In this document: piece after piece, positions 4,176 through 55,269 of the stretch
How positions within the stretch are numbered: the stretch's first letter is position 1
Layout of the letters: every line of letters begins with the position of its first letter
From: a virus
Strand: one strand, 5' to 3'
Virus record (IMG/VR): IMGVR_UViG_3300029309_000005
Location: 1 to 64,000 of that record
DNA: 64,000 nt
Made by a program: the position numbers and the translations under genes
The notes under the pieces: generated by a model
Databases searched by the model: none
What the model was told of the DNA's origin: nothing
The model's input: only the letters and a program-made list of their open reading frames with translations

Positions 4176-5639
4176 TCACAGCCCCATAATTACGCCTAGT
4201 AAATCATCGTCACCAACATTATCATTTTCAAGACGCTCTTGCCTAATTTCTGCAAATGCTTTTTCTTCAGCAATCATTTCTTCAGCATCTTCAATAACAT
4301 CCACTGGAGTTACAGCAGGACTAGGATCTGTTTCATCAACTTCTTTGAGAATTGGCGCATCATCCATTAGAGCCTCAATTGGTATTTCATTTACCTCTTG
4401 CGGGGCTTCGACTACCACTGGGCCATCTGTTGAATCAACCACTAGATGAAAAGGCAAATCCTCTTTCGGCCCTACGGTGAAAAGAATTGGTTTGCCTCTA
4501 GCATAGCGACCTGTTGGAGAACGCTCGCAAGTAATCAGAAGTCTATGTGTCTCGCTGATAGTGAAACCTAATTCAGTCCAATTCCCAAAAAGACCATCCA
4601 AATCAACAAATTCTGCTTCTTCTTCAAATTTATCCAATGCCCTCTTGATGGTCTGCACATGGCAATCCGCAAGGTCGGCAACATCTTGAATGCTAATTAC
4701 TGCTCTGAAGTAATCTTGAGCAAGTTGATACTTTATCCATGAAGTAGGATTTTTCTTGAAGTTATGAGGATTAGCCGGTAAATCGGTTCCATCATTCTCA
4801 AACTGAGGCTGTCTTTCAATGGACTCCAGAGATGATGGGCTGACAACATCAATCTCCGGCTCTGCTTCAGGAACAGATTCATGCACAGGCTTGTCGGATT
4901 GGGGATGACTGGTATGAGAAACCTCGTCAGCCACCTCTGCATGTTCCATAGGAGTTAGAGTATCTGCATGTTGAAGCAATCTTTCACTTGGAGAGACATA
5001 TTCTTCAACAATTTCTTCAGCCTGGTCTGGTATCTGTTCTAATTCTGTAACTTCAAATGAGAAGTGTGTCTTAGCACTACCAGCAGACTTGCTCTTGAAT
5101 GTGCGCTTGAATGAATCAATCATCTCAGCGACTTCGATAGGATTGTTAGGTTCTGGCAAAATGCTCTGATCGACTTTCATCCTACCCGTTTCATCAACCT
5201 GCATAGCACGATTGATTGCCGCATTTACGCTCTCAGTGTATTTTGATACAACAGCAGTATCGCCCTCACAGACTTCTATGAGAGCATCAATATACATGCC
5301 GATAAGCCACTCTCTAGGAATGGTTGCTGGCGTAGCCTTGTCACTCATTCCTACTGGGATAGAAACCATTGATTTGTTTTCATCACTAGGAACGACAGTC
5401 AGTAATTTGTTACCAACTCTAATTTGAATGTCTGAGCGTGGGATTTCAGCCAGTGGCTTTTTACCCCAATCTCTGCGCTCATCTTTGCTTAGATGTAGGC
5501 CATTAGTTTCTTGCCATTCCTTTGAGATTACATCCCCTAGTAGTTTCAATACTGGCCCCACATCTGCTGATAGATTCAATCCCTTTGCTTGTTCAGTTAC
5601 ATCCTTTCGACTCATACTTTTCACTTCTCTCACCGTCAT
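4176..5639 (-). CDS. acidic protein with internal HTH
   Basis: ISIQDVADLADCHVQTIKRALDKF is HTH-like. Start moved to ATG 5639, ~27 nt downstream of a TTGATATA box. Confidence 0.6.
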   Translation of the reverse strand: MTVREVKSMSRKDVTEQAKGLNLSADVGPVLKLLGDVISKEWQETNGLHLSKDERRDWGKKPLAEIPRSDIQIRVGNKLLTVVPSDENKSMVSIPVGMSDKATPATIPREWLIGMYIDALIEVCEGDTAVVSKYTESVNAAINRAMQVDETGRMKVDQSILPEPNNPIEVAEMIDSFKRTFKSKSAGSAKTHFSFEVTELEQIPDQAEEIVEEYVSPSERLLQHADTLTPMEHAEVADEVSHTSHPQSDKPVHESVPEAEPEIDVVSPSSLESIERQPQFENDGTDLPANPHNFKKNPTSWIKYQLAQDYFRAVISIQDVADLADCHVQTIKRALDKFEEEAEFVDLDGLFGNWTELGFTISETHRLLITCERSPTGRYARGKPILFTVGPKEDLPFHLVVDSTDGPVVVEAPQEVNEIPIEALMDDAPILKEVDETDPSPAVTPVDVIEDAEEMIAEEKAFAEIRQERLENDNVGDDDLLGVIMGL

Positions 5640-17659: not shown

Positions 17660-18480
17660 ACGGACAACATAGACACTAAAGACACATTTCGAGACAGGGG
17701 TGTTCCATATCAAAAAGAGCATACTGCAAGCATCTAACAGCACATCTTAGGACACAATAGACACTTTCGACAGTTCCCTCAATATATGCAGACAAAAGAC
17801 AGGGATTTCATAGGGGAAATATGCAGTAAATCTAGGTGAAAATATACTGTTGTTTGTCATGTATTTTGTGTCTTTTTTATTGGCATCATGTCTAATATGT
17901 CTATCGTGTCTAATGTGGACTCAAAGATCGCTACTTTCAACCAGTATCAATACAACCGAAAACGACCTACTGCGAACCCCCTGCCGCTTGGGTGGGTGTT
18001 CGTTTTGTTTTGTTGAAATATGAGACAAATTGTGTATTTTGGTGTCCTACCAGGCTCTCAGTGGGTCGAAATTGGGTGTCGGACTGGGTTTTAGGCTAGG
18101 ATTTGGCCCGTTTTGAGCCAGTTTGTGGGCATGAAACTAGGTGTAAGACTGAGTGGCCTACCCAGTGTGGATATATCGCCACAGAACCCAGTTTATCGCC
18201 ACAAAATGGCCGGTTTTATCGCTACAAACACCCAGTTTGCGAGCCAGATCGAACGCACTGAGCCGAGCAGCCAGTCTGACGACTGGCTGGTGTGCCATAA
18301 ACGGGTGACTGAGAGCCTGGAACGCCCAGTATTGCACCCAGTAACTGCTAAATAGGCTCGCAGTAGCCTTTTTTTTGCCTAAAAGGGGTAGATTTGGGCA
18401 TATTTTTTTTTTTTTTTTGGCTGCCGCCATAAGTGACATACGCTACACGGAAAAAAATTTGAGAAAAAGTTGTTAGGAAT
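17660..18480. other. divergent non-coding region with short direct and inverted repeats (candidate origin / pac / genome end)
   Basis: Coding strand switches here. AGACA(C) repeats at 17663-17773 face TGTCT copies at 17868-17915; CCCAGT and TATCGCYACA repeats at 18161-18342; T16 run at 18403-18418. Confidence 0.55.
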
Positions 18481-18508: not shown

Positions 18509-20038
18509 ATGTGTTGCATCGAGTGTAATATGCCTGAGTTTTCACCGTATGAAGATGGTGATAACATCATGCGTTTGCGTAGGTTTGCTCAAAGTGAGCC
18601 AATGAAAGTCAGAACTTCAGAAAATGACGATGATTTAACGCAAAGAGATCGCACAGAGAGTTGTTGTGATAAGTTCAAAGCGGATTTGGCTGCTGCTACA
18701 CTGACTGAGCGCATAAGTATGCTTCTCGATATGAGTTTGGGCGCAGTAAAGAGGGGTGGCAGAGGTGGCCCTGGCGAAGATGTGTATATGGGCGACTTTG
18801 GAAACTTTATGGATTGCAGAGAATTAGTTGAAGCGATAAATAATGTATTGACATATGAGACAGATGACCCTGCTGACCAAGATTCGCTAGACCAGTTAAG
18901 ACAAATAGTATTGGAATATGAGAGTTGTAAAGGTGTGCAGTTTGGAAACTTCACGCACGATATGATGCAGTTAAGTGAAAATACGTTTGAAGCGGCTTGG
19001 GATTCTATCTTTAAGATGCCGACAGATTTTGATCCGTTCCCTGATGTATCTCCAGAACAGGCTAGGGCTATTTTTGCACAGATGATGACAACCAGTGCAT
19101 TAGATAATGTAGATACGATGCCCGAAGTCAAAGTTGGTGATGCTGGTGGCGACAAGTGTTGTGCAGAGGCAAAGTCGAAGTGGATTACATACCTAACGGA
19201 ACAGTTTGATGCTGAGAACGAAATGATGGGAGATAAACAATCACACCGAGAACTTAGCGATTCAATTATAGCAAAATATGAAGCGATGGATTGTGATGAA
19301 TTCAAGATGTTTTTAGAAAATATAGCCGGAGTTAATAACAATCATCCGGTATATAGAGCGCATAACGAAAGAAAGGGATTGGGAAGGACTACCGAATCTT
19401 ATGAGGCTGCACGTATAATGGAGTCTTGGAACGCATGTGAGTTTGGCGCAGGTGAAAATGCAGAAGATATGGGGTTCTATGCAAGTGATGATTCTTTTGA
19501 AGCGACTTGGGATTCAATAAGTAAAGCCCCATTGGATATGGATTCAATCAAGCCGGTTGCTTATGTTCCAAATAATGATGATGAAAAGCGGTTTAGCATT
19601 GCAGATTTTATACACCCTAAGACTGGCAAACGCTATCCTATGGTTATGACAACGCCTTCATATTCACATGATTTTAATGTGGATATAGAATATCCACCGG
19701 ATGAACAAACTCAATTCGATGAAATGTTAGGTCACAAAATTGGTAGTAGCAATGTAAGTTATCACTTAGATCATGAACCTGATGATTTGCCATTTGCTAT
19801 GAATTATCCGATTGAAGGTGCAACCGTTAATATAAGCCCTTACATTGCAGATAATTTCAGAAACTTGGGAATGGCACAAGCGATATATGATTTGATAGAT
19901 GCTTTAGGATATAGGGTAAAGGCCAGTGACACTAGATCGGATGAAGGTGATGCGTTTTGGTCTGCTAATCAAGGCCGCACAGTTGATTCGTATGAGATGC
20001 CATTTTGGAGAAACAAAGAAACGAGGGAAAACTTATGA
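18509..20038 (+). CDS. polyprotein-like ORF: two Cys-containing helical repeats plus C-terminal GNAT-like domain, separated by two internal leader motifs
   Basis: Repeats CC...MDC.E......C. Internal SENTFEAAWDSIFK|MP and SDDSFEATWDSISK|AP. C-terminal YIADNFRNLGMAQAIYD...SDEGDAFW is GNAT motif A/B-like. Start uncertain. Confidence 0.65.
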   Translation: MCCIECNMPEFSPYEDGDNIMRLRRFAQSEPMKVRTSENDDDLTQRDRTESCCDKFKADLAAATLTERISMLLDMSLGAVKRGGRGGPGEDVYMGDFGNFMDCRELVEAINNVLTYETDDPADQDSLDQLRQIVLEYESCKGVQFGNFTHDMMQLSENTFEAAWDSIFKMPTDFDPFPDVSPEQARAIFAQMMTTSALDNVDTMPEVKVGDAGGDKCCAEAKSKWITYLTEQFDAENEMMGDKQSHRELSDSIIAKYEAMDCDEFKMFLENIAGVNNNHPVYRAHNERKGLGRTTESYEAARIMESWNACEFGAGENAEDMGFYASDDSFEATWDSISKAPLDMDSIKPVAYVPNNDDEKRFSIADFIHPKTGKRYPMVMTTPSYSHDFNVDIEYPPDEQTQFDEMLGHKIGSSNVSYHLDHEPDDLPFAMNYPIEGATVNISPYIADNFRNLGMAQAIYDLIDALGYRVKASDTRSDEGDAFWSANQGRTVDSYEMPFWRNKETRENL

Positions 20039-20142
20039 CGAGATGTAAATTATTAGACGGATGGCTTGATATTCAATCGAAAAGGATTGATGAAAAAGAA
20101 AAGCAGACCAAGAGGTGTTCTGTCACTGGTGAGAAAAAATGA
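20035..20142 (+). CDS. 35-aa small protein
   Basis: Not in track: MTRCKLLDGWLDIQSKRIDEKEKQTKRCSVTGEKK. ATGA-overlaps both neighbours exactly. Confidence 0.55.
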   Translation: MTRCKLLDGWLDIQSKRIDEKEKQTKRCSVTGEKK

Positions 20143-20621
20143 ATACTTTTGATACCGCTTGGGGGTTGCTCAAAGAGTTCCGTTTTGAAGGTGGCTTCCC
20201 AGGTATCTTATTAGCAGGTGCTTACAATCCAAAAACCGATACACCTTATGTCAATCTCGCTAGTCATGTTTCTGATTTCAAAAGACCTGCGGATTGGAAT
20301 CGAGATGGCGTTTCATATCCAGTGTTTCGAGATGATGAAGAATTAATGGAGAGGGTTCTGCGTATTCTTGCACATGAAAACATGCACCAAGCCCTTCATC
20401 CACCTTATACTGATGATTTATGGAATGAGGTTTCAATGTTTGGATTGAGCAGCAAAGATGTTGATGAGGCAGAGAGGAATCGACTTCAAGCCAAGATTGA
20501 TAATGACTGGGAAAGATTTCAAGAATATGGTGCGTGGAGTGCAACACCAGGAATTGATGAAGATGAGAAGTGGCGAATGCTACGACTCTATGGAATTTAT
20601 CCGAAGGAGGGAGAGCCATGA
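20139..20621 (+). CDS. leader-tagged zincin-like metalloprotease
   Basis: MNTFDTAWGLLK|; YVNL...RILAHENMHQAL...QEYGA (HExxH plus downstream E). Confidence 0.7.
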   Translation: MNTFDTAWGLLKEFRFEGGFPGILLAGAYNPKTDTPYVNLASHVSDFKRPADWNRDGVSYPVFRDDEELMERVLRILAHENMHQALHPPYTDDLWNEVSMFGLSSKDVDEAERNRLQAKIDNDWERFQEYGAWSATPGIDEDEKWRMLRLYGIYPKEGEP

Positions 20622-21205
20622 GTTCTTTTAATGTCGCTTGGGATTCCATTACAAAAATGCCTATTGTTCCTGGTTCAGTTTCAGAAGGAGTGCCAGATCC
20701 TAGAGCCAGATACGCAAAAAGTGGTTACAAGCAATATACGGCTTCATTTGAAGATCCTGTAACTGGTGAAATACTACCAATGTTGGCAAGACATGGCCCA
20801 AGTGACCTTCAGGTTACTATCAAAGACCCTAAAGAAGAAGTTATACTCTCGACTCTTGACCTTGACAGCCAATCCGATAACGCCTACCGAATAACATATG
20901 ATGATCAAGGTAACAAAAACCGTATGGAAGATTGGGAAATTTTGCCGCCCTACTATTCGGCAGGTTATGTAGAAACCCAAGATGACCGTCAAAGAAGGGG
21001 TTATGCTACGGCATTATATGACTTAGCAGCATACTTGTTAAGTCGAGGCCATCCAAACTACGAAGAACAATGGGGAGGCCAGCCACCGCTATCTATCGTT
21101 CCATCTGGCGACCAAGAAGAAGATGGTTTTTTGTTTTGGGAAAACGCATATAAGACTGGTAAAGTAACGGATGACGATACTTGGCGAGTGAGGGATGACT
21201 TATGA
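20618..21205 (+). CDS. leader-tagged GNAT-like acetyltransferase
   Basis: Start corrected to ATG 20618 (ATGA overlap): MSSFNVAWDSITK|MP; VETQDDRQRRGYATALYD...QEEDGFLFW. Confidence 0.7.
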   Translation: MSSFNVAWDSITKMPIVPGSVSEGVPDPRARYAKSGYKQYTASFEDPVTGEILPMLARHGPSDLQVTIKDPKEEVILSTLDLDSQSDNAYRITYDDQGNKNRMEDWEILPPYYSAGYVETQDDRQRRGYATALYDLAAYLLSRGHPNYEEQWGGQPPLSIVPSGDQEEDGFLFWENAYKTGKVTDDDTWRVRDDL

Positions 21206-22071
21206 TTAGGATTTTTGAGGTCGGCCCACGTGATGGTTTGCAGAATCTCCCCCATGTTCCATCCACAGAAGATAAAATCAAACTAATCCAATTACTGCGT
21301 GATGCAGGTCTTACTCGAATAGAAATTGCTTCATTCGTGCATCCAAAAGCAGTTCCAAACATGGCTGACGCTGAAGAAGTCTGCAAAGCGTTTGATAATA
21401 AAACTGGATTATCTGTGCTGGTTCCAAATAAGCGTGGTCTTGATCGAGCGATAGAATCTGGTATGGGCAACTTCAACATATTCTTTTCACCATCTGATAC
21501 TTTCAATGTAGCAAACTACGGTTTGAAGTTAGAACAGATATTAGAAGGATATGAAACGACTCTGCAAAATGTGTCTCCAGATATTGTTAGAGTGTATATA
21601 TCAGAGGCATTTGAAGCAAGTCAGGAGGAACTTACATTAGCGATACAACACGGTTTAAGGTTTGGAAATAGAATTGTGCTATGTGATACTAAAGGCACAG
21701 CCAAACCATTTGATATAGCAACTGGTATAGGAATCGCACAAGACTTCACACATGAAATATCATTACACCTTCATCATGGTCGCTACTTGATGAATAATGT
21801 GGCAACTGGATATGCAAACGGTGTGCGAGAGTTTGATTCGAGTATTGGCGGTCTTGGCGGTTGTCCGTTTGTTGAGAACTCTGGTGCTAATCTTGCTACT
21901 GAAGAATTAGTGAGATGGTGTAATAAGAGAGGAATAGATTGTGGAGTTAAACTATCTGATTTGAAGGCGGCACGTAAGTTAGCACATAAAATCAAAAATC
22001 CAACGCTTCGTATAGCAATAAAGAATAAGGTTAAGTCCACTAGGGATAGAATACGGGCGGGGTTATCATGA
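21202..22071 (+). CDS. hmgL: hydroxymethylglutaryl-CoA lyase (DRE-TIM)
   Basis: IFEVGPRDGLQN, IEIASFVHPKAVP.MAD, LVPNKRG, LCDT.G, HLHH, FDSSIGGLGGCPF, GANLATEEL. Confidence 0.9.
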   Translation: MIRIFEVGPRDGLQNLPHVPSTEDKIKLIQLLRDAGLTRIEIASFVHPKAVPNMADAEEVCKAFDNKTGLSVLVPNKRGLDRAIESGMGNFNIFFSPSDTFNVANYGLKLEQILEGYETTLQNVSPDIVRVYISEAFEASQEELTLAIQHGLRFGNRIVLCDTKGTAKPFDIATGIGIAQDFTHEISLHLHHGRYLMNNVATGYANGVREFDSSIGGLGGCPFVENSGANLATEELVRWCNKRGIDCGVKLSDLKAARKLAHKIKNPTLRIAIKNKVKSTRDRIRAGLS

Positions 22072-22754
22072 CGGCTTTTGACACCACTTGGGATTTGCTC
22101 AAGGATTTCTATTTTTCACCCAAGGACACGAAAATGAATGTCGTAAGACGTGATGACGGAAGCGTTCTTTCGTTTGCTGATCGGTTGGGAGAAATGCAGC
22201 CACCTATGATTGATGCCGATTATATGAGAAGGATTACAAGAGGATCTGATTTCAAACCTATTCCCTCGCCTTTTGTTGAGGGCAAGCACCAACCAGTTAT
22301 TTTGCCGAGAAATGTTGTGATGGAACATGACCCAGAAGAAGGAGGGTTTGCGCCAAGGCGAATTGATTCAATGCGAATGAGGGAAATGTATCGAGGCCAT
22401 GAAGGACTACCACACTATGTCGGAGTCAATTTATCAGCAATGCGTCAAGGCGAGGATGATTTAGATACGATATTAGAAACTTTGGCTCATGAACACGCTC
22501 ATGCAGCCATTGATGATGAGTTGATGCAGGTTTTGTATGATAGAATGGTGGAGGCTCAAAATTATGATGACGCTGAAAAAGCCTATCATCAGCACGTAGG
22601 GGCGCATGAAATCGGGGCATATAATCTCCAAAATCCAGGCGGAGAGGATGCTGCACGATCAGCCCGATTTAGCACAATACTTCATCCCAATTACAAATTA
22701 GCAAATCGGGGCAAGAGTCCACCGATGGCATACATTAGAGATAATCTAAAATAA
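22068..22754 (+). CDS. leader-tagged zincin-like metalloprotease (paralog of 20139 ORF)
   Basis: MTAFDTTWDLLK|; VGVNLS...ETLAHEHAHAAI...HEIGAY. Confidence 0.7.
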   Translation: MTAFDTTWDLLKDFYFSPKDTKMNVVRRDDGSVLSFADRLGEMQPPMIDADYMRRITRGSDFKPIPSPFVEGKHQPVILPRNVVMEHDPEEGGFAPRRIDSMRMREMYRGHEGLPHYVGVNLSAMRQGEDDLDTILETLAHEHAHAAIDDELMQVLYDRMVEAQNYDDAEKAYHQHVGAHEIGAYNLQNPGGEDAARSARFSTILHPNYKLANRGKSPPMAYIRDNLK

Positions 22755-22868
22755 TTTTTTTTGTGTAGTTTCAAAACTGGCTTAAAATAATGCCACATAG
22801 CCAAAAAGTGGCCTAATTTTTTTTTTCGATGGAATGGCTTTATTTCAGATAGCCACCTGCACATTAAT

Positions 22869-23438
22869 ATGGCATCGACATTTAACTCCGCTTGGAGTGT
22901 GATTAAGATGCCAGCCAAAGGATGGGAATGCCCTGAATGTAAGATGCCAATGATGGTCGAGGACACCAAAGGAAATCATCTTACTTGTATGAATTGTGGT
23001 GCAGTTGCTTTACAGCCTATTCGCAGAAGGAGAACAAGAGGAACGGGTGAAGCCTATGCTAGAACAAACCAAGCGTATGATGATTACAAACAATCCCAAC
23101 TTGACAATCGACCTAATGAGATAAAAGCATTAGAAGATGTGGGTGTAAATGTAGTCGATAAGCCAAAGAGATTGACTGAATATAATCCCGAACACATGTT
23201 TAATCCACTAGCAATGGCACTAAACGAGTTAGGTTTTGAATCGGTTCAAGAATTACTGCAAGAGTATGTAAAGTTGAAAGCCGTAACTAAAAACCAAGAT
23301 TTGCGAGATTTAGGACTATCTGACGAAGCAGATGAACTCGATCAGCAATGGATAGAATATATTTCAAACGCACATAATCAATTTGGTAGCCCATTTATGT
23401 CAGCAAAACGGGGGAGGCGATGGGATGACCCTGTTTGA
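22869..23438 (+). CDS. leader-tagged Zn-ribbon protein
   Basis: MASTFNSAWSVIK|MP; CPEC...LTCMNCG (TFIIB-like ribbon spacing). TTTATTT box ~30 nt upstream. Confidence 0.65.
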   Translation: MASTFNSAWSVIKMPAKGWECPECKMPMMVEDTKGNHLTCMNCGAVALQPIRRRRTRGTGEAYARTNQAYDDYKQSQLDNRPNEIKALEDVGVNVVDKPKRLTEYNPEHMFNPLAMALNELGFESVQELLQEYVKLKAVTKNQDLRDLGLSDEADELDQQWIEYISNAHNQFGSPFMSAKRGRRWDDPV

Positions 23439-24189
23439 TATTGCCTGGGCTTTGCTCAAAGAAGAAGGACAACGCAGGGATGTAAAGCCCCACGCATTAT
23501 CAGGACTTGCTGATCGTAAAACTATGTCTTTTGGAGAGGGTATTGATGATGCTAGGGCATTTTATCAACTACCATTAAGCACAATTACGAGTTACGGGAG
23601 TGACGCTAAACAAAGAATAGGGCCGAACCCTTCTAAACCCAATAATGAAAACGACTGGCAACAGGTCGGCCATATTCCTTTTATTGAGGGTTATGAGGCT
23701 GAAGGATATGGTGCTTATGAATCTGAAAGTAATGCTTTGAAAGACCTAATGAATGCTGCTGTGCCGCCCTCATTTGCTCAAGATGGTTTCTATCATCCTT
23801 ACTTACACGCTTTGGATTATGACACAAACGAATGGGTTACTCATTTAGGCGAAGATGCACCGCCCACTGGCGATTATGAGCGAATCTTCAGAGCAAAGGT
23901 AATTCAAGATGGTGGGCCACTTAGCCCTCATAATCCCATTTATCCAGATTGGGTTTGGACTAAAATTGAGAGAGAGCAAGATGAGGATGGCAAACATCAT
24001 TTGACATTATACACCGCAAAATACCCTTACAGTTTAGATGAATTATATGAAAATTTACGAGAAAACCCTGAACCTTACTTTGAGTCCGGTGCGATACAAG
24101 TTGATGACAACATACAAACAGGAGAGCCAATGAGTATCGCTTGGCAGTTGTTGAAGATGCGTATTCCTAATTTGCCAGAGGGGATTTAG
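23425..24189 (+). CDS. leader-tagged hypothetical protein with second leader copy near C-terminus
   Basis: Start corrected to ATG 23425 after GGAGG: MTLFDIAWALLK|; C-terminal TGEPMSIAWQLLK|MRIPNLPEGI. Confidence 0.65.
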   Translation: MTLFDIAWALLKEEGQRRDVKPHALSGLADRKTMSFGEGIDDARAFYQLPLSTITSYGSDAKQRIGPNPSKPNNENDWQQVGHIPFIEGYEAEGYGAYESESNALKDLMNAAVPPSFAQDGFYHPYLHALDYDTNEWVTHLGEDAPPTGDYERIFRAKVIQDGGPLSPHNPIYPDWVWTKIEREQDEDGKHHLTLYTAKYPYSLDELYENLRENPEPYFESGAIQVDDNIQTGEPMSIAWQLLKMRIPNLPEGI

Positions 24190-24381
24190 ATGATGTATCT
24201 TTGCCCAATGTGTCAATCCACTGAATTTGATACTGACACTATCATTATGCAAGGTAAGTGGAGTCGTCTAATCAATTACTCGAATAAGAAATATGATGCT
24301 GTTAGTTGTAAAAATTGTGGCTATACCATGCTTTTCAAACAGGATGCTAAGTTCAGCATAATGGAGGCGTTGATAGGATGA
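24190..24381 (+). CDS. small Zn-ribbon nucleic-acid-binding protein (DUF2082-like)
   Basis: CPMCQSTEFDTDTI...SRLINYSNKKYDAVSCKNCGYTMLF; no leader. Confidence 0.7.
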   Translation: MMYLCPMCQSTEFDTDTIIMQGKWSRLINYSNKKYDAVSCKNCGYTMLFKQDAKFSIMEALIG

Positions 24382-24806
24382 CAGCCTTCGACACCGCTTG
24401 GGGCTTGCTCAAAATGCCGTTTTTTGAAGATTTACCTCAAGTAACACAAGACGACATTACATACCTTATGCTGGAACGCAACCCACACATAGACGAACAA
24501 TACAAAAGGATTCACCCAAATTACCTCAAAAGGGATATGTTCGGAATGTTTTTGCCCGAAATCGAGCAGATGGAGATAAGTCGCTTGACGAATCAAAGAC
24601 CTGTTGAAAACACAAATGCAAAAACCATTGAACGCTACATCGAAATGCTCAATCAAGGAAGCCCTTCACCTCCGATCATTGTTTCGGGAAATCAATTTGT
24701 TGATGGAGGACACCGTTTGCATTCTCATAAACAGGTTGGATTGAAGAAGATACCAGCCATAAACATTGGAGATTTGTTGGAAAAACCATTGGGGGTTGCT
24801 GAATGA
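24378..24806 (+). CDS. leader-tagged ParB/Sulfiredoxin-like protein
   Basis: MTAFDTAWGLLK|MP; PPIIV...FVDGGHRL...GLKKIPA. Confidence 0.75.
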   Translation: MTAFDTAWGLLKMPFFEDLPQVTQDDITYLMLERNPHIDEQYKRIHPNYLKRDMFGMFLPEIEQMEISRLTNQRPVENTNAKTIERYIEMLNQGSPSPPIIVSGNQFVDGGHRLHSHKQVGLKKIPAINIGDLLEKPLGVAE

Positions 24807-25255
24807 CCGCCTTCGACACCGCTTGGGATTTGATGAAAGCCCCTTTTCATGGAACTACAACTGGCGTTCTTAAAAAAATAAGAAAACGAGGACTTCAACC
24901 AAAAAGGCCAGACGCTTTCACCAGCCCGTCTGTGTTTTTTTCACAAAGCCCTGAACAGGCGATAGCATTTGCCAATATCCGTTCCGACTTGACGAGAGGT
25001 AAGTATGGTGGCGATCCCGTTCTCCTTCATTTTCCTCTTTCAGCCGTTAAGAATCCGAATCAAGGTCTATTCCGACCAACACCCGAAGATGGAGATAATC
25101 AATGGACTAAACACCCCATTCCTGCAAGTGCAATAACAGAATACTACGGGCCGCCAAAACCCAAAGACAAAGAAAAATGGGATGAATGGCAAGACGCTAT
25201 CAATTCATGGAAAAAAGAAATGATGGAACGGTATGAACAGGGGGAGTTTGATTGA
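24803..25255 (+). CDS. leader-tagged ADP-ribosyltransferase-like (Tpt1/KptA-type HGT) protein
   Basis: MTAFDTAWDLMK|APFHGTT...IRKRGLQP...VFFSQSPEQAIAFA...PVLLHF...IPASAI. Confidence 0.7.
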   Translation: MTAFDTAWDLMKAPFHGTTTGVLKKIRKRGLQPKRPDAFTSPSVFFSQSPEQAIAFANIRSDLTRGKYGGDPVLLHFPLSAVKNPNQGLFRPTPEDGDNQWTKHPIPASAITEYYGPPKPKDKEKWDEWQDAINSWKKEMMERYEQGEFD

Positions 25256-25518
25256 CTGTCTTTGACATCGCTTGGGATTTAATGAAATCTATACCTATGG
25301 ATATTATGAATGACCCTTTGGTGTATGTTGCCCCCGATAACAGCCACCGTTTCGTTAGACAAGACCGTGATTTTCGTTCTTGGTTGTATGAAAATGGCTA
25401 TCCAGCCGATGATGATTTCCTTCAATTAGATTTCATGCAACAGATACAAGTTTTGTTTCATTACAGGGTTCAGCAAGGTGCTTCAAAGGAACAGTCGTTT
25501 ATGGAGGACAATGTATGA
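25252..25518 (+). CDS. leader-tagged hypothetical protein
   Basis: TTG start; MTVFDIAWDLMK|S. Confidence 0.65.
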   Translation: MTVFDIAWDLMKSIPMDIMNDPLVYVAPDNSHRFVRQDRDFRSWLYENGYPADDDFLQLDFMQQIQVLFHYRVQQGASKEQSFMEDNV

Positions 25519-26144
25519 CCGCCTTCGATCAGGCTTGGGGCTTGCTCAAAGCACCTTATCACGGAACTACGTCAGATCGTGTTGAAAGCATAATGCGTGA
25601 GGGATTGAAGCCGAGCGATTGGAAGTCAGGGAATCGTTTTGTTGGTGGCAAGGGTCAATATGAAGAAGGAAAGCCTGTGGTTTTTGCTACATCGTTTCCA
25701 AAATTGGCGTTGAAATATGCAAAGATGGGGGCAAATAGAGCCTCAAGGCGGAGGGCGCAAGATGAAGGCAGAATTACAGGGAACTGGACTACCGCAACAT
25801 CGGACAAAACCTTTGACTCAAAATCGGGTCGCCCTGTGATTATTGAGATTGATCCGTCTTTTCCGCTTAGGCACAACAAAGAATGGAATGCCTACAAATC
25901 AAATGTCGTCATTCCGCCTCAATTTTTGCGACTTGCTTTTGAAAGCGAGATAGCCCCAACTGAACCAATCACTTATGGTCGCATGGAGGCTATCGTTGAT
26001 GGAGAATATGAGCGCATGGATCCTCAACTGCCAAGAAGTGAAGTTAAACGAAGGTTGGCCTCATACGATGACGATCCAGATGAAACGGGATATTCGCCAG
26101 AATTGAGTCTTGAAGAAATTGAAAGGCGGGTGATGCGTGAATGA
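25515..26144 (+). CDS. leader-tagged ADP-ribosyltransferase-like (Tpt1/KptA-type HGT) protein
   Basis: MTAFDQAWGLLK|APYHGTT...SIMREGLKP...VFATSFPKLALKYA...PVIIEID...IPPQFL. Confidence 0.72.
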   Translation: MTAFDQAWGLLKAPYHGTTSDRVESIMREGLKPSDWKSGNRFVGGKGQYEEGKPVVFATSFPKLALKYAKMGANRASRRRAQDEGRITGNWTTATSDKTFDSKSGRPVIIEIDPSFPLRHNKEWNAYKSNVVIPPQFLRLAFESEIAPTEPITYGRMEAIVDGEYERMDPQLPRSEVKRRLASYDDDPDETGYSPELSLEEIERRVMRE

Positions 26145-26479
26145 CCGCCTTCGACACCGCTTGGTCTTTGTTGAAAGAAGGCTTGCCGTATTACGGGAAT
26201 TGTGTTAATGGTTTTGACGATGTGGAAGTTTTGCATTATATCATTGATAATTCAATTGAAACAACCTATGATGATTTAGCAAACAATGTATCGGCAAGTG
26301 ATTTAGCCGCATTAGAACAGGGGTTGGGATATGGCGAACATTTGCATATTGCAGACGATTATGCGGCTTCCTTTCATAAATTACCTTCTTTACCCCTCTT
26401 TTACATAGACCAAAGCGGGATTGAAAGGGTGTTTGCTGAACCAAGCACAATTGAACGGATAGAGAGGTTGGTTGAATGA
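26141..26479 (+). CDS. leader-tagged hypothetical acidic protein
   Basis: MTAFDTAWSLLK|E. Confidence 0.68.
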   Translation: MTAFDTAWSLLKEGLPYYGNCVNGFDDVEVLHYIIDNSIETTYDDLANNVSASDLAALEQGLGYGEHLHIADDYAASFHKLPSLPLFYIDQSGIERVFAEPSTIERIERLVE

Positions 26480-26895
26480 ACGCCTTCGACATCGCTTGGG
26501 CTATTGTAAAAATGCAAACAGGCCATAGACGCTTTTTTTCAAAAAAGGAGATTCAAGAAATTGCCGAGATGAACAGGCATTTGGCTTTGATGATTGATGA
26601 TGGTTCACTTGACCCAGATCCAAGCGTGAATTATCCCTCTCAATGCAGGGAGTGTTTTAGTGAAATCAATAACATTGTTGAGGGTATTCCAAATCATTGT
26701 AGTCGTTGTATTCATCCCTTTGTGGATAAGCGAATAAATGATGCGATGGGAATAGCAGGTCTATTTGGAGATGGTAAGCCATTTGATTTACAAGACGCAT
26801 TGCGGCAAGACAAAAATGAAATCAATCCTTTTGATGGTTCGGCAAGTGAAGTTGATTTTAGAATGTATGAAGATAGGATGCGTGGTTTAGAATGA
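26476..26895 (+). CDS. leader-tagged CxxC protein
   Basis: MNAFDIAWAIVK|M; CREC...CSRC. Confidence 0.68.
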   Translation: MNAFDIAWAIVKMQTGHRRFFSKKEIQEIAEMNRHLALMIDDGSLDPDPSVNYPSQCRECFSEINNIVEGIPNHCSRCIHPFVDKRINDAMGIAGLFGDGKPFDLQDALRQDKNEINPFDGSASEVDFRMYEDRMRGLE

Positions 26896-27626
26896 CCGCC
26901 TTCGACACCGCTTGGCAATTGATGAAAGCACCCATTGATGTTTATTCGGATCGTGGCCGAATAAGGGAGATTACTGATGATGAGATGTTGTATAGCGGTG
27001 GGGATTTTAGAGATGACCCACGCTATTATTCAAATGACCTTGATGTTGCTTTGCATTATGCTTTGTATGGTTCAGCCATTCCCTACGCTGATTTTAGAGG
27101 GCGAAGAAATACAGAAGGAAAATCCTCTCCACCAATGCGAAGAACAATACCGAGCATCAGAATCATTGACCCAAGCGATTTTGAAGAATACGAATACGCA
27201 ATGCAAGAAGATCCATATAGCCCTGGTATTGGTGTTATGGATGATGAGAATATGGGTGAACGTTTGTCGCATGATCGAGTTATTGAATTGCTTCAAGAAT
27301 ACATTGATGAAAGACGATATGAGGGGGTTATGGGCGGAACAACAGGCGAATTATTCACCCCTGAACAAAGAGGGCAACACGCAAAAGACGCTCTTAATCG
27401 TTTGAGGGCTTACAGGGATAATGAATCACTTGAGAGGTTTAACCCCAAACCACCAACCTATGAGATGGATGCCGATGTGTTTAGAACTGCCGAATACGAT
27501 GATTTCATGGAGGCACTTTCTTATGACGATAGCATGGTTGAAATGCTTGGCGAATGGGAGGATTTAGAGGATTGGCAACGAAAAGCAGCCAAAGAAGCGG
27601 GATATTCGGAGGATGATTGGATATGA
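26892..27626 (+). CDS. leader-tagged protein, possibly a divergent ART fold
   Basis: MTAFDTAWQLMK|AP; LYSGG...YYSNDLDVALHYA resembles ART strands 1-2 with the His replaced. Confidence 0.6.
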   Translation: MTAFDTAWQLMKAPIDVYSDRGRIREITDDEMLYSGGDFRDDPRYYSNDLDVALHYALYGSAIPYADFRGRRNTEGKSSPPMRRTIPSIRIIDPSDFEEYEYAMQEDPYSPGIGVMDDENMGERLSHDRVIELLQEYIDERRYEGVMGGTTGELFTPEQRGQHAKDALNRLRAYRDNESLERFNPKPPTYEMDADVFRTAEYDDFMEALSYDDSMVEMLGEWEDLEDWQRKAAKEAGYSEDDWI

Positions 27627-28369
27627 CCGCCTTCGACACCGCTTGGAATCTTGTCAAAGAATATACTCCAAATTGGAGAGATGTTGCTAGTAATTTGCCA
27701 GAACTTTCTATGAGTGAGCGTCAAAAGTTGTTAAGCGAGGATTCTATAATGGATGATATGATGGGGCAAGGTGGCTCATTAAGCACCTTTATTCATCCAA
27801 GTGATAGAAGATTTGTTGTTAAATTACCCCACATGCAACACTCTAAAGACAATTTAGCAAGCAGGTTTGGTGATTATGATGGAGATGGTTACTACATGAC
27901 TGAATTGTTAGAAAGTCTTGGTTTCCCCGTAGTATCTGAATTTAATGTAGATGATGAGTATATTATTCAGCCAATTCTCGAAACTCATGCTTATGGTGGG
28001 TTTGGTGAACTAGGGCGGCCAACTTTAGGAATTGCAGATATTCCAATGAATCATATATTTGGCGATAGAGTAAGTGCTAATTGGGGTCGTGATCAGACAG
28101 GGAATTGGCGTTTGTTTGATACTGATATGGGTATGCCTCCACCGTATGATTGGTGGCCTTCTTCATCAGCGAATCCAGGTCAAGCCTATCAAGAAAATCT
28201 TGACAAGTTCAACATTCAATTGCCAGCCTCTAGTGTTCTCGATATTTTGGATGAAATACCAAACGACATGGATGGTTTGAGGGCTGTAATGGAATCCATT
28301 GAACCATATTCGGACAATCCGCAATATGTAACGGTTGATAAAAAACCTGTGTGGAGAACAGGGTATTGA
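27623..28369 (+). CDS. leader-tagged protein-kinase-like (HipA/PI3K-type) protein
   Basis: Start at ATG 27623: MTAFDTAWNLVK|E; MGQGG (Gly loop), FVVKLP, GDRVSANWG (DRxxxN), RLFDTD. Confidence 0.6.
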   Translation: MTAFDTAWNLVKEYTPNWRDVASNLPELSMSERQKLLSEDSIMDDMMGQGGSLSTFIHPSDRRFVVKLPHMQHSKDNLASRFGDYDGDGYYMTELLESLGFPVVSEFNVDDEYIIQPILETHAYGGFGELGRPTLGIADIPMNHIFGDRVSANWGRDQTGNWRLFDTDMGMPPPYDWWPSSSANPGQAYQENLDKFNIQLPASSVLDILDEIPNDMDGLRAVMESIEPYSDNPQYVTVDKKPVWRTGY

Positions 28370-36937: not shown

Positions 36938-38477
36938 CAATCCTAGAGAACCCCTTATTTGGACTCCACGAACTCAAGAAATGATGGGAGGTTTCAATCC
37001 ACGTGAAGTTTTAGACCATGACATTAACCCTAATGAGGATAGTGATGGTCTTTCACATCATGGTCGTGAAACTCCAGAGGATGGTCGTAGTCGTGATCAA
37101 GCAGACCCTAAAAAGCGAAGGGAGAGAGCGTTAAGTGAATTGGCTGCAAAAATACCTCACGTTAGTATCAAACCACAGAAGATTGATGATGTATTAGGAA
37201 GATCACCACAGTTTGAACAGGAACAGACTATGCTTGAAGCAGGTATTGGACTTGATTTGAACAGAAATGGAATTGGTTTATCGAATGGAATGAATGCTGG
37301 TTCTGTTAGAACAGAGGGGCCGAATGTCAGATACGGTATGAGTAATACTCTAGTTCCAGCGATGTTAGGTAAAGCAGAAGAAGGAGGCTCGCCTGAACTT
37401 CCTACATGTAAAAACTGTGGTTATAAAATGGGAATCGCTAGATATGCAAGAGGAAAGGAATTATGCGTTGTGTGCGATCCAGAAATTCAAGACAAAGTTG
37501 AGGCAAAGGTTAGGAGAAATTTAGTTCCTAAACCTGTGCGTGAAATAGATTTTAACCCCGACCCAAATGAGCAATACGACCCAAGGTTTGGTGACACATC
37601 TAAATATCCAGAATTTACTGCAAGTGAGGACTCATTTACTTACGCTTGGGATAGCGTTCTAAAAGCAAAAAGGCGTTACAAAGGTCGTAGGATGTATGAT
37701 GAGGAAGAATCCGATGAGGATGAGCGTAAATCAAAGGCCAAACGAAAGAGGTCAAAAAGACGCAAAGGTAAGACTCAGAAGAAGGGCGCACGTGGGGGTC
37801 GTCAAATAAAGTCAGCATCTAAAAGGAGGGCGAGTAGTGTTGCTTTAGATGTTGATCGTGGTTCAAAAAGACAAGCATTCCACCCTAATATCCATAGTGA
37901 AGCAGTTAGAAGAATAGGGTCTGGTCGAAATGAAGCGATACCTTTGCGGTTACGTGACCCCGTTGCATGGGAACGCAAAAAAGCAAATGAGAGAATGAGA
38001 AGGCAAGTTGGTTCAGTTCCGAGGGCTTTAAGATTATCACATCACGCAGACACTAGAGGCATGGGAACAAAAGGCCGTTCAATACTTGGAGGCACTATTG
38101 GAACCGGCACTAGAATGCCCTCAGTGAGTAGAATGGGAACATCAACATCTAAATTTTCAAGAGGTGCAGTTGGTGATCCTTTAGGCATTAACGACCCGTT
38201 AGTTGCTAAAATGAATCTCCTTTCCAAATCAAAACCTAACATTTCAAGGTCTGAGTTTATGGCTATGAAGCGTAAGATTGAGAAATTACTTCAACGGCTT
38301 AACAAATTGACAAAGGCTACCCCTGAATTAGATAATGCAGGAAAAGTAGGTGCGGTTGTTAGCGGTCATGAATCGTCTGCACCAACTGGTGCAACAAAAA
38401 CAAATGAGGAAGAAAAAGCATTCCGTTTTGTTGATATGGCTTTAGCACAGGAGATGGGTCTTATAGGCAAGAAGTGA
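36927..38477 (+). CDS. putative internal virion protein with internal leader motif and very basic segment
   Basis: ASEDSFTYAWDSVLK|AKRRYKGRR...KRKRSKRRKGK; Zn ribbon CKNC...CVVC. Confidence 0.6.
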   Translation: MVVSNPREPLIWTPRTQEMMGGFNPREVLDHDINPNEDSDGLSHHGRETPEDGRSRDQADPKKRRERALSELAAKIPHVSIKPQKIDDVLGRSPQFEQEQTMLEAGIGLDLNRNGIGLSNGMNAGSVRTEGPNVRYGMSNTLVPAMLGKAEEGGSPELPTCKNCGYKMGIARYARGKELCVVCDPEIQDKVEAKVRRNLVPKPVREIDFNPDPNEQYDPRFGDTSKYPEFTASEDSFTYAWDSVLKAKRRYKGRRMYDEEESDEDERKSKAKRKRSKRRKGKTQKKGARGGRQIKSASKRRASSVALDVDRGSKRQAFHPNIHSEAVRRIGSGRNEAIPLRLRDPVAWERKKANERMRRQVGSVPRALRLSHHADTRGMGTKGRSILGGTIGTGTRMPSVSRMGTSTSKFSRGAVGDPLGINDPLVAKMNLLSKSKPNISRSEFMAMKRKIEKLLQRLNKLTKATPELDNAGKVGAVVSGHESSAPTGATKTNEEEKAFRFVDMALAQEMGLIGKK

Positions 38478-54120: not shown

Positions 54121-55269
54121 ATGACACAAGGATATATTCGCACAATTGAAGATATGGAACGCTTGTATTACGGTGCAGGTGCAGGAACAAACGCATGGGC
54201 ATACAGTGGAACAGACTTATTGAAGGCTGACAATCCCCTAATGTCCTCTACTGCTGGAACATACCAAGCCATTTTTGGTCGTAAAGTATGGTCACAGTTA
54301 AATCAAGAATTCAACGCATTTAGCATTCTGCCAAAGAAGCCTTGGGAGAAATCTGGATGGCGTGTTGTAACTGGTAAGCCAACTGATGCAGTAGGATTGC
54401 CAGAAAACGGTGCGCTACCGGATTCCACCAAGCCAACATTTGAAGAAGTTGCTACAAAGCCAAAGACAGTCGCAAGCAAATTCGACCTATCTGAAACTGC
54501 AATGTTCCTTGCTGACAAGGATGACGGTCTAGGTGACGCAAGAGCAGTTATCAAGATGGAAATGTCGAAATCTCACGCAGAATCAATTAACAAAATGTTG
54601 CTTCGTGATGTAGATACAGTCGCTGGAAACAACTTTGAATCCATTGATCGTGCTGTTTCATCATCCTTTACTGAGCCAGCATCTTTCGCTGATATTTCAG
54701 CACTATCAGACCACAACCAGTATTCTATCACCCGTAACTCAACTGGTGCTAACTCTTGGTTCGATGCAAACGTAGATGCTGGAACTGGAGGAACAGAGCG
54801 ACCATTGACACTGAATGTGCTTGATGGAATGTTTAGACAAGTTTGGGAACGTGGTGGTCAGCCAAAGGTTATTCTAACTGGCTATGACACTATTGAGAAG
54901 ATTCAACAACTATTGCAGCCTCAACAAAGATTTACTGAGATGCAAAGAGTTACACCATCAGTCAACGGAGTGCAAGGTATTCCTGGTATGGAGGGCGGAT
55001 TCGTAGTAGCAACCTACAACGGTGTGCCAATTATACCTGCTAAAGATGTTCATGCACCATCTGGTGGACTTTCAAGAATTTACATGCTAGACACAGATTA
55101 CATGTATTTCTGCACAGCAAAACCAACTCTTTACCATGAAAGCGGAATTGAGACTGGCGATCCATTCGGTATCAACAGATTGGGTCAGGTTGGTCTATTC
55201 CACACAATGGGTGAACTATGGCAACTGTTCTATGGCGCACATGGAAAGATTCGTGACCTAAGTGCATGA
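54121..55269 (+). CDS. major capsid protein (HK97 fold)
   Basis: Follows protease; ~380 aa; PKKPWEKSGWRV, LPENGALPD, YNGVPII, GEL...HGKIRDL. Confidence 0.88.
   Translation: MTQGYIRTIEDMERLYYGAGAGTNAWAYSGTDLLKADNPLMSSTAGTYQAIFGRKVWSQLNQEFNAFSILPKKPWEKSGWRVVTGKPTDAVGLPENGALPDSTKPTFEEVATKPKTVASKFDLSETAMFLADKDDGLGDARAVIKMEMSKSHAESINKMLLRDVDTVAGNNFESIDRAVSSSFTEPASFADISALSDHNQYSITRNSTGANSWFDANVDAGTGGTERPLTLNVLDGMFRQVWERGGQPKVILTGYDTIEKIQQLLQPQQRFTEMQRVTPSVNGVQGIPGMEGGFVVATYNGVPIIPAKDVHAPSGGLSRIYMLDTDYMYFCTAKPTLYHESGIETGDPFGINRLGQVGLFHTMGELWQLFYGAHGKIRDLSA

What the first reader, a model, noticed from the sequence alone, without database searches (positions are those of the whole stretch)
18509..20038. 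Leader motif used internally as a polyprotein junction
Seen: the 509-aa ORF has two homologous Cys modules (CC...MDC.E...C), each followed by the motif (SENTFEAAWDSIFK|MP at ~18974-19018; SDDSFEATWDSISK|AP at ~19484-19528), then a GNAT-like domain similar to the stand-alone 20618 gene (R..G.A.A.YD...G..FW). Internal position at domain boundaries argues that the motif acts at protein level (binding plus cleavage) and is not just a translation-initiation or export signal.
Basis: partly seen in the sequence, partly recalled or inferred. Interest (0 to 1): 0.7.

Follow-up and report, generated by a model that had tools for sequence, protein, structure and literature searches.

The report
Tag helix joins magrovirus protein modules
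In this ocean archaeal virus, a 509-residue protein is three modules joined by the same short helix ending in lysine that starts about twenty other proteins of the virus; the helix is probably a shared address and cutting signal for loading proteins into the virus head, but neither cutting nor loading has been measured.

Summary
ORF 18509-20038 is intact and its product was seen on 16 contigs. It reads [Cys-helical unit 1]-tag-[Cys-helical unit 2]-tag-[GNAT-like domain]. The tags are F160-K169 and F330-K339.

Relatives give the key evidence:
- The GNAT-like domain, always starting [A/M]-P-L-D, occurs alone behind an N-terminal M-[ST]-A-F-D-x-A-W-x-[LIM]-x-K leader. It also occurs fused behind a Cys unit with the internal tag.
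- The paralogue at 20618 has a relative in which its leader is internal, behind a zinc ribbon.
- Stand-alone Cys units start at the residue matching our M170.
- Related viruses carry further chains with two to four tags.

The tag is the most conserved feature of these proteins, and Lys is never replaced by Arg. Its Ser uses both TCN and AGC codons. AlphaFold places it as a low-confidence helix between folded domains.

The head protease is HK97-type (S78). The capsid protein and the protease carry conserved W...L-L-K|[A/S] sites.

Cleavage and head loading remain inferred. Tags with only 3-10 residues behind them show that the tag is more than a cut site.

The same scan noted internal tags before in other magrovirus genomes. 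I found no published description.

The parts
18509..20038 (+). ORF of 509 aa (502 aa if it starts at M8, nt 18530). It is the first gene of the + strand block, after the divergent intergenic region.
18530..18973 (+). Cys-helical unit 1 (aa 8-155), a divergent copy of unit 2 with C52-C53, C103 and C139
   Evidence: hhalign E 2e-7; collinear alignment; helices 45-141 at pLDDT about 70-80
18974..19015 (+). Junction tag 1, S-E-N-T-F-E-A-A-W-D-S-I-F-K (aa 156-169); the proposed cut is after K169
   Evidence: low-confidence helix in a linker; stand-alone relatives start at the residue matching M170
19016..19483 (+). Cys-helical unit 2 (aa 170-325), a helical bundle with the conserved C-C...C...C pattern
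   Evidence: 71% identical stand-alone homologue P0006; pLDDT above 90 over much of 220-311; no informative fold match
19484..19525 (+). Junction tag 2, S-D-D-S-F-E-A-T-W-D-S-I-S-K (aa 326-339); the proposed cut is after K339
   Evidence: W334 invariant and F330, K339 at 90% or more in 37 sequences; helix 329-338 behind a low-confidence linker
19526..20035 (+). GNAT-like alpha/beta domain (aa 340-509), starting A-P-L-D-M-D-S
20618..21205 (+). Stand-alone paralogue of the GNAT-like domain with an N-terminal leader, M-S-S-F-N-V-A-W-D-S-I-T-K|M-P
   Evidence: hhalign E 1.7e-14; relative L088:1055-1771 has the same domain behind a zinc ribbon and an internal tag
20139..28369 (+). Array of genes that begin with the leader (starts at 20139, 20618, 22068, 22869, 23425, 24378, 24803, 25252, 25515, 26141, 26476, 26892, 27623); this is the context of the finding
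24130..24156 (+). Tag copy M-S-I-A-W-Q-L-L-K lying 10 residues before the stop of ORF 23425-24189 (a C-terminal position)
37623..37664 (+). Internal tag S-E-D-S-F-T-Y-A-W-D-S-V-L-K in ORF 36927-38477, between a zinc-ribbon-bearing N-terminal part and a Lys/Arg-rich part of 270 aa
52722..54119 (+). Head maturation protease (Peptidase_S78) with a C-terminal extension of about 280 residues that I take to be a scaffold; conserved A-S-W-S-A-x-G-S-D-F-L-L-K|S at nt 52749-52787 and Y-T-I-L-K|M-E after the catalytic domain
54121..55269 (+). Major capsid protein; N-A-W-A-Y-S-G-T-D-L-L-K|A-D at nt 54190-54231 is the candidate maturation site

Best explanation
The window is the first 64 kb of a complete 96.6-kb magrovirus-type archaeal tailed virus. 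A short amphipathic helix serves as a shared signal that works at any position in a protein. Its core is F-x-x-[AST]-W-x-x-h-(x)-K, with F, W and the hydrophobic residue h on one face.

I propose that the helix docks tagged proteins to a component of the assembling head. I also propose that its invariant Lys is the P1 residue for the virus's HK97-type (S78) head protease.

On this reading the product of ORF 18509 is loaded as one chain and then cut after K169 and K339. That would give unit 1 with its tag, unit 2 with its tag, and a free GNAT-like enzyme starting A-P-L-D. The Cys-helical unit with its tag would then work as a long, repeatable pro-module. It would be the counterpart of the 12-residue N-terminal leader that other copies of the same enzyme carry.

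Shown here:
- the architecture of the protein;
- homology of the modules;
- positional equivalence of the internal tag and the N-terminal leader;
- selection on the tag at protein level;
- position of the tags between predicted folds;
- the family of the protease.

Inferred: docking, head loading, the cut itself and which enzyme makes it.
For: 1. Equivalence of leader and internal tag.
- The A/M-P-L-D domain family is found alone behind an N-terminal leader (P0007, P0010, P0011, P0027, P0032, P0042).
- It is also found fused behind a Cys unit with an internal tag (this ORF, P0004, P0005, P0008, P0013).
- The 20618 product has relative L088:1055-1771, in which the leader is internal behind a 67-aa zinc ribbon (31% identity, E 1e-15, with F68 aligned to F4).

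2. Register of the border. Stand-alone Cys units (P0006 at 71% identity, P0014, P0017, L003:4998-5546) begin M-P-x-D-F-D-P-F, the residue matching our M170. Unit 1, read from M8, begins with the similar M-P-E-F-S-P-Y.

3. Recurrence. A rough map of 43 proteins follows the grammar (tag)-(module-tag)n-cargo. Examples:
- L002:528-3983, 1151 aa with three tags, at the same locus in a virus whose capsid protein is 96% identical;
- L001:4981-6681, reading X-tag-Cys-tag-basic tail;
- P0015 and P0016, reading Cys-tag-Cys-tag-X;
- P0021, with four tags;
- P0024, in which a Pfam D12 DNA methyltransferase match (residues 221-273; 26.6 bits against a cut-off of 22) lies behind the Cys unit and its tag.

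4. Constraint.
- W334 is invariant, and F330 and K339 are at 90% or more, in an alignment whose mean column identity is 10%.
- Of 79 F-x-x-x-W-x-x-h cores, 54 are followed by Lys. Two are followed by Arg, and both look like chance frames.
- Codons differ between the copies.

5. Structure. Both tags are short helices at pLDDT about 40-60, each behind a linker below 50, and they lie between confident domains.

6. Link to the head machinery.
- The protease matches Peptidase_S78 (41 bits against a cut-off of 21). From established knowledge, HK97 gp4 of that family removes the capsid delta domain after Lys103.
- The capsid protein's L-L-K|A-D-N aligns with S-K|A-D-N at the end of the roughly 100-residue N-terminal extension of halovirus capsid proteins, and 80 relatives keep it.
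- The protease's S-W...F-L-L-K|S is a conserved island between variable residues.
- The tag array lies on the same strand as the head genes and upstream of them.
Against: No cut and no virion location has been observed for any tagged protein.

The residue after the Lys is very variable (M, A, E, D, S, K, N, G, Q, I, F, H). The candidate capsid and protease sites have only A, S or M there.

Many relatives carry the tag 3-10 residues from the C-terminus (P0006, P0014, P0017, P0020, P0022, P0026, P0029, ORF 23425). A cut there would achieve little, so cutting cannot be the whole function.

The capsid and protease sites resemble the tag only loosely: six or seven extra residues separate W from L-L-K.

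Borders that coincide with start codons could also come from recombination within leader DNA rather than from processing.

The models are monomers of moderate confidence (mean pLDDT 70.6), and no complex could be modelled.
Confidence: 0.5

Rival explanations
1. The tag is a docking helix only. It binds a common partner, which could be a head component, a viral hub such as the Cys unit itself, or a host protein. It is never cut, so multi-tag proteins stay whole and are simply multivalent.
For: C-terminal tags with tails of 3-10 residues make sense for docking but not for cutting. The residue after the Lys is unconstrained. The F, W and hydrophobic residues lie on one face of a short helix, the pattern usual for groove-binding peptides. 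Every Cys unit seen is followed by a tag.
Against: Lys is never exchanged for Arg even though other tag positions vary freely. L-L-K|A/S sites are conserved in the two proteins that head proteases normally cut. Stand-alone orthologues begin at the residue right after the Lys.
Confidence: 0.25
2. The tag is cut, but not by the head protease. The cut would be made by one of the leader-tagged H-E-x-x-H (zincin-like) proteins of the same array (20139, 22068, or genome positions 82246-83685). It could happen before loading or after injection, as predicted for polyvalent proteins of phages.
For: Three tagged proteins carry H-E-x-x-H. L002:5972-7495 joins such a domain to a zinc ribbon through a tag. 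Iyer et al. 2017 (PMC5512222) predict processing of injected multidomain proteins by zincin-like peptidases.
Against: No Pfam family, the MPTase models included, matches these proteins at E up to 0.1. Nothing links them to Lys specificity. The similarity of the tag to the capsid and protease sites favours the S78 enzyme.
Confidence: 0.1
3. The internal tags are scars of gene fusion. Cassettes recombine within conserved leader DNA, and loss of a stop codon leaves a leader stranded inside a longer ORF with no function of its own there.
For: Architectures differ between near-identical viruses at this locus. Borders coincide with start codons of relatives.
Against: The internal copies are the most conserved columns across homologues that share only 20-70% identity. 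They have a conserved upstream context of their own, [FY]-A-S-[ADE]-D-x-F-E, that N-terminal leaders lack. They differ from the leaders at DNA level while keeping the peptide.
Confidence: 0.07
4. The motif is a nucleic-acid or translation signal (start-site context, downstream box) or an export signal, and the peptide itself does not matter.
For: N-terminal leaders are nearly identical as DNA (ATG ACC GCC TTC GAC ACC GCT TGG) and follow G-rich stretches that look like ribosome-binding sites.
Against: The internal copies lack a Met in register, use other codons and keep only the amino acids. The peptide has no hydrophobic core of the kind a signal sequence needs. It also occurs at C-termini.
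Confidence: 0.03

Closest known systems
Capsid targeting sequence (CTS) of phage T4 internal proteins IPI-III and Alt, removed by the prohead protease gp21 (PMC3012670, PMC7411985)
   Same: A short conserved N-terminal peptide sits on otherwise unrelated, fast-changing proteins. It ends in the residue type that the head protease also cuts after in the capsid protein. The cargo includes host-modifying enzymes, and the genes form a variable array.
   Different: The host is archaeal. The protease belongs to the HK97-type S78 family rather than the T4 gp21 type, and the proposed P1 residue is Lys rather than Glu. The tag is also used between modules and near C-termini, which the sources read here do not describe for the T4 CTS. 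Loading and cutting are demonstrated for T4 and not here.
Long N-terminal propeptides of head and ejection proteins in giant phages SPN3US and phiKZ, cut by their prohead proteases (PMC10052503, PMC7411985)
   Same: Propeptides of 111-254 residues precede the mature head-internal proteins, carry several protease sites, and are thought to target the protein to the prohead. The Cys unit with its tag (about 170 aa) ahead of the GNAT-like domain looks comparable.
   Different: The cleavage motif there is A-x-E, read by a T4-like protease. Here the pro-module is a discrete domain that is repeatable and swappable and also exists as a gene of its own. Its end is the same peptide that serves as the short leader elsewhere in the genome.
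Polyvalent proteins of phages and conjugative elements (Iyer et al. 2017, PMC5512222)
   Same: Unrelated modules are strung in one polypeptide in viruses with a portal-terminase system, predicted to be packed and injected. Some domain types are shared: GNAT-like here, a D12 methyltransferase match in relative P0024, and H-E-x-x-H (zincin-like) proteins in the array.
   Different: In what I read of that paper (abstract and word searches), no universal junction peptide is described, and processing is predicted through embedded zincin peptidases. ORF 18509 has only one enzyme-like domain and two helical modules of unknown role, and its junctions are one conserved helix.
HK97 gp4 protease and the gp5 delta domain (MEROPS and Pfam S78)
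   Same: The protease family is the same. The candidate capsid maturation site follows a Lys at the end of an N-terminal extension.
   Different: HK97 is not known to load tagged cargo or to cut multi-module chains. The N-terminal capsid extension here is only about 35 residues, and the scaffold is probably the C-terminal part of the protease ORF.

Membership tests
T4-type capsid targeting sequence system | One short conserved peptide at the N-terminus of otherwise unrelated proteins | tested here: met
   About 19 ORFs in the 96.6-kb genome start with M-x-x-F-x-x-[AST]-W-x-h-h-K, 13 of them in the window
T4-type capsid targeting sequence system | The peptide ends in the cleavage consensus that the head protease also uses on the capsid protein and scaffold | tested here: inconclusive
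   The capsid protein has L-L-K|A-D aligned with the end of the halovirus N-terminal extension. The protease has F-L-L-K|S and I-L-K|M. All are conserved, but no site has been verified experimentally.
T4-type capsid targeting sequence system | Tagged proteins are inside the capsid and the tag is removed by the prohead protease | not testable with these tools
   This needs virion proteomics or in vitro cleavage
T4-type capsid targeting sequence system | A protease of the T4 gp21 type cutting after Glu | tested here: not met
   The protease matches Pfam Peptidase_S78 (HK97 type), 41 bits against a cut-off of 21, and the tag ends in Lys. The system may work like the T4 CTS but is not a member of that system.
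Polyvalent proteins (Iyer et al. 2017) | Two to 15 domains of disparate biochemical activity in one polypeptide of a phage with portal and terminase | tested here: inconclusive
   There are three modules, but only one looks like an enzyme (GNAT-like). The two Cys-helical units have no assignable activity. Relatives join a methyltransferase match, H-E-x-x-H domains and zinc ribbons.
Polyvalent proteins (Iyer et al. 2017) | An embedded zincin-like peptidase predicted to process the chain | tested here: not met
   ORF 18509 has no H-E-x-x-H and no Pfam peptidase match. Tagged H-E-x-x-H proteins are separate genes.
GNAT acetyltransferase superfamily (C-terminal domain) | GNAT alpha/beta fold | tested here: inconclusive
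   The matches are almost all GNAT enzymes, but scores are middling: VIA Z 7.9 (rmsd 2.9, 102 aligned) to 5.5, and Foldseek probability 0.9-0.97 at E 0.01-0.1
GNAT acetyltransferase superfamily (C-terminal domain) | The Q/R-x-x-G-x-G/A acetyl-CoA motif, and a sequence-model match | tested here: inconclusive
   R451-N-L-G-M-A456 fits the motif, and G and Y-D are conserved across the family. No Pfam GNAT model passes its cut-off; FR47 gives E 0.049 for the 20618 product.
Caudovirus prohead serine protease S78 (gene 52722) | A match to the family model above the curated cut-off | tested here: met
   PF04586, E 2.8e-10, 41 bits against 21, residues 25-183; PHROG head maturation protease, 8.7e-19
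Viral polyprotein in the strict sense | The chain is cut at defined junctions into separate functional products | not testable with these tools
   Only indirect evidence is available (see the best explanation)

The most novel reading that the evidence does not exclude
One ten-residue helix is a signal for both address and cutting that works at any position in a protein and is read by an HK97-type, Lys-specific head protease. Magroviruses would then build their virion cargo as beads on a string and cut it apart inside the capsid, which as far as I know would be the first capsid-internal polyprotein system described in archaeal viruses. The Cys-helical unit with its tag would be a reusable carrier module. 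A bolder extension is that Cys units bind the tags of other proteins and so chain the cargo into an inner body.
Probability: 0.35. Interest if true: 0.8.

Novelty: new variant of a known kind. Interest (0 to 1): 0.62.

Why it matters
Magroviruses are among the most abundant viruses of the surface ocean, and neither they nor their Marine Group II hosts have been cultivated (PMC5434244). How these viruses take over their hosts is therefore unknown.

A shared tag marks a whole set of probable virion-delivered proteins. Their enzyme-like domains (GNAT-like, D12 methyltransferase, H-E-x-x-H) can be read from sequence alone. The internal copies show that the tag is a peptide signal and not a start-site feature.

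If the Lys is a cut site, the system gives:
- a clear specificity for an archaeal-virus S78 protease;
- a natural example of cargo delivered in fixed ratios as one chain;
- a short portable tag that could be tested for loading foreign proteins into archaeal-virus capsids, as the T4 CTS has been used.

All of this can be tested with recombinant proteins, without the uncultivated host.

Tried and rejected
Searches for a named family or a closer relative of the whole ORF:
- Pfam and PHROGs gave nothing for the ORF.
- tblastn against 50,697 phage records gave no match.
- A search of viral contigs with peptides of the whole protein gave no match.

Attempts to read the genomic context of the homologues:
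Some short 'stand-alone' forms may be cut by contig ends. L003:4998-5546 has a real stop codon, with a GGAGG and the next ATG inside its tail.
- Fetching the locus from relatives through the neighbouring 913-aa gene (13197-15938, minus strand) gave nothing with the single protein and two loci with an alignment.

Attempts to find a measured capsid N-terminus:
- I guessed a PMC id (PMC3592136) for a paper that I recalled might hold N-terminal data for halovirus capsid proteins; no paper is held under that id. A review of haloarchaeal viruses gives no mature N-terminus.
- The capsid protein has no relative in the PDB by sequence.

Fold of the Cys unit: only generic helical-bundle matches (best VIA Z 6.8; no BFVD hit at E 0.001 or better), so no function could be assigned.

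Literature:
- Two magrovirus papers searched by word contain no 'leader' or 'N-terminal'.
- A full-text search for four tag strings found only one unrelated paper.

Rejected readings:
- Chance occurrence.
- Assembly error (16 contigs).
- Internal start sites (no Met in register).
Full report
**What the window is**

The window is the first 64 kb of a single 96,627-bp contig. The first and last 100 bases or so of the contig repeat each other, so the genome is complete.

It encodes a large terminase, a portal, a head maturation protease and a major capsid protein. The only phage records matching the capsid protein are archaeal tailed viruses. The closest are haloarchaeal viruses HVTV-1, HCTV-5 and HCTV-1, at 32-33% identity. 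That relationship was reported for magroviruses, the viruses of Marine Group II archaea (PMC5434244).

Genes run on the minus strand up to about nt 17,600 and on the plus strand from 18,509 onward. ORF 18509 is the first gene of the plus block. That block continues through an array of small genes into the head module.

The ORF is open for 509 codons. A 502-residue form starting at M8 (nt 18530) is on record from 16 contigs. A TATA-like run lies directly upstream of 18509, which fits a start at 18530.

Two matches to the loose tag pattern arise in 1.5e-5 of shuffles.

Genome-wide, about 19 ORFs begin with the same peptide. Further non-N-terminal copies lie in ORF 36927-38477, near the end of ORF 23425-24189, and in an ORF at genome positions 82246-83685.

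**The modules**

- Unit 2 (aa 170-325) is a confident helical bundle with a conserved C-C...C...C pattern.
- Unit 1 is a divergent copy of unit 2. A profile of 27 Cys units with the tag stripped off matches residues 101-147 (hhalign E 2e-7). A global alignment shows collinear anchors from M-P-x-F-x-P through F-A-Q, C-C and M-D-C to the tag, although its score without the tag is modest (z 2.3).
- The C-terminal domain (aa 340-509) is a confident alpha/beta fold. Its structural neighbours are almost all GNAT acetyltransferases, at middling scores.
- That domain is homologous to the product of gene 20618 (hhalign E 1.7e-14).
- The Cys unit has no informative structural neighbour.

**What relatives show**

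A full HMMER scan of 1.84 billion representative proteins found 41 relatives.

1. The GNAT-like domain always begins [A/M]-P-L-D.
   - In six representatives it stands alone behind an N-terminal leader of the type M-[ST]-A-F-D-x-A-W-x-[LIM]-x-K.
   - In this ORF and four others it follows a Cys unit and an internal tag of the type S-x-D-x-F-E-x-x-W-D-x-[LI]-x-K.
   - The internal tag is therefore the positional equivalent of the leader.

2. The 20618 paralogue shows the same switch. In L088:1055-1771 its leader is internal, behind a 67-residue zinc ribbon.

3. Stand-alone Cys units start M-P-x-D-F-D-P-F, the residue matching our M170 directly after K169.

4. Multi-tag chains are common.
   - A virus whose capsid protein is 96% identical carries, at the same locus, an 1151-residue protein with three tags.
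   - Others read X-tag-Cys-tag-basic tail, Cys-tag-Cys-tag-X, Cys-tag-zinc ribbon-tag, and H-E-x-x-H domain-tag-zinc ribbon.
   - In P0024 a D12 methyltransferase match lies behind the Cys unit and its tag.
   - The 10-residue W-D-S-I-x-K flavour predominates internally, but both flavours occur in both positions.

**The tag is a peptide signal between domains**

- In a 37-sequence alignment with 10% mean column identity, W334 is the only invariant column, and F330 and K339 are the only ones at 90% or more.
- Lys follows 54 of 79 cores. Arg follows two, and both look like chance frames.
- The Ser of W-D-S is encoded by TCT, TCA, TCC and AGC. The internal copies share little DNA with the near-identical N-terminal leaders, and there is no Met in register.
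- In both AlphaFold models the tags are short helices of low confidence behind linkers below pLDDT 50.

**Link to the head machinery**

- The protease matches Peptidase_S78, the HK97 type. From established knowledge, HK97 gp4 cuts the capsid protein after Lys103.
- The capsid protein's T-D-L-L-K|A-D-N aligns with S-K|A-D-N at the end of the roughly 100-residue N-terminal extension of halovirus capsid proteins, with K, A, D and N invariant. Eighty relatives keep N-A-W-A-Y-S-G-T-D-L-L-K|[A/S]-D.
- The protease has a conserved island A-S-W-S-A-x-G-S-D-F-L-L-K|S between variable residues, and Y-T-I-L-K|M-E after its catalytic domain.
- These sites look like stretched versions of the tag ([A/S]-W...L-L-K). 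I take this as suggestive and not as proof.

**Best reading and its limits**

The tag most likely docks proteins to the assembling head and presents its Lys to the S78 protease. ORF 18509 would then be a head-internal polyprotein giving two Cys units that keep their tags and a free GNAT-like enzyme.

The Cys unit with its tag resembles the long targeting propeptides of giant phages (PMC10052503). The 12-residue leader resembles the T4 capsid targeting sequence (PMC3012670 and PMC7411985).

Three observations count against a pure cut-site reading:
- Many relatives, and ORF 23425 here, carry the tag 3-10 residues from the C-terminus.
- The residue after the Lys is almost unconstrained.
- Borders that coincide with start codons could come from recombination at leader DNA.

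I put the combined docking-plus-cutting model at about 0.5 and docking without cutting at about 0.25. Cutting by a tagged H-E-x-x-H protein, as predicted for polyvalent proteins (PMC5512222), gets about 0.1.

**Novelty**

Two magrovirus papers searched by word contain no 'leader' or 'N-terminal', and a full-text search for four tag strings found only one unrelated paper.

Earlier notes of this same scan describe the leader in this genome and internal tags in other magrovirus genomes. I treated those as leads and re-derived the evidence here.

Relative to the literature this is a new variant of known kinds (capsid targeting sequence, protease-cut head propeptides, polyvalent proteins). What is new:
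- an archaeal virus;
- an S78 protease with a proposed Lys specificity;
- one peptide used before, between and behind modules.

Noticed in passing
window 21202-22071: An HMGL-like gene (Pfam PF00682, E 1.4e-25, nearly full length) sits inside the leader array but has no leader of its own.
   Followed up: no
window 18403-18418; also L002 about 250-650 and L003 about 4640-4960: A run of 16 T lies in the divergent intergenic region just upstream of ORF 18509. The matching regions of two relatives translate to the same poly-Lys strings, so the tract appears conserved; it could be a promoter or origin element.
   Followed up: no
window 20139-28369 and relatives: The residues after the tag are often K|M-P or K|A-P. 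A Met right after the Lys would allow a leaderless form to be made from the same gene, and stand-alone relatives such as L003:4998-5546 do start at that Met.
   Followed up: partly
window 20139-20621 and 22068-22754; genome 82246-83685 (L086): Three tagged proteins carry an H-E-x-x-H motif followed by similar residues (for example H-E-Y-G-H-E-A-I-D-D-E-L). The third continues through an internal tag into a 71-residue Lys/Arg-rich tail that is homologous to the tail of L001:4981-6681.
   Followed up: partly
window 36927-38477: The part of this ORF after its internal tag is 270 residues very rich in Lys and Arg. It may be a DNA-condensing head-internal protein released by the same signal.
   Followed up: no
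window 24378-24806: This tagged 142-residue protein has a D-G-G-H-R-L-H stretch that recalls ParB/sulfiredoxin-type nucleases. Pfam gave no hit at E up to 0.1.
   Followed up: no
P0023 and P0046: Leaderless proteins from other sources contain two or more tandem copies of the small GNAT-like core (R-x-G-I-A-x-x-M-Y-D...S-G-x-Q-x-x-x-G-x-x-F-W), so the domain family reaches beyond tagged virus proteins.
   Followed up: no
genome 1-101 and 96527-96627: The contig ends repeat each other over about 100 bases with one mismatch, a sign of a complete, terminally redundant or circularly permuted genome.
   Followed up: yes
L006-L085 (head-module loci of relatives): Several relatives have internal tags such as F-T-K-A-W-D-D-L-I-K followed directly by F-G-D-C-P-V-C, that is, a tag in front of a small zinc-binding module. 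This genome has no counterpart.
   Followed up: no
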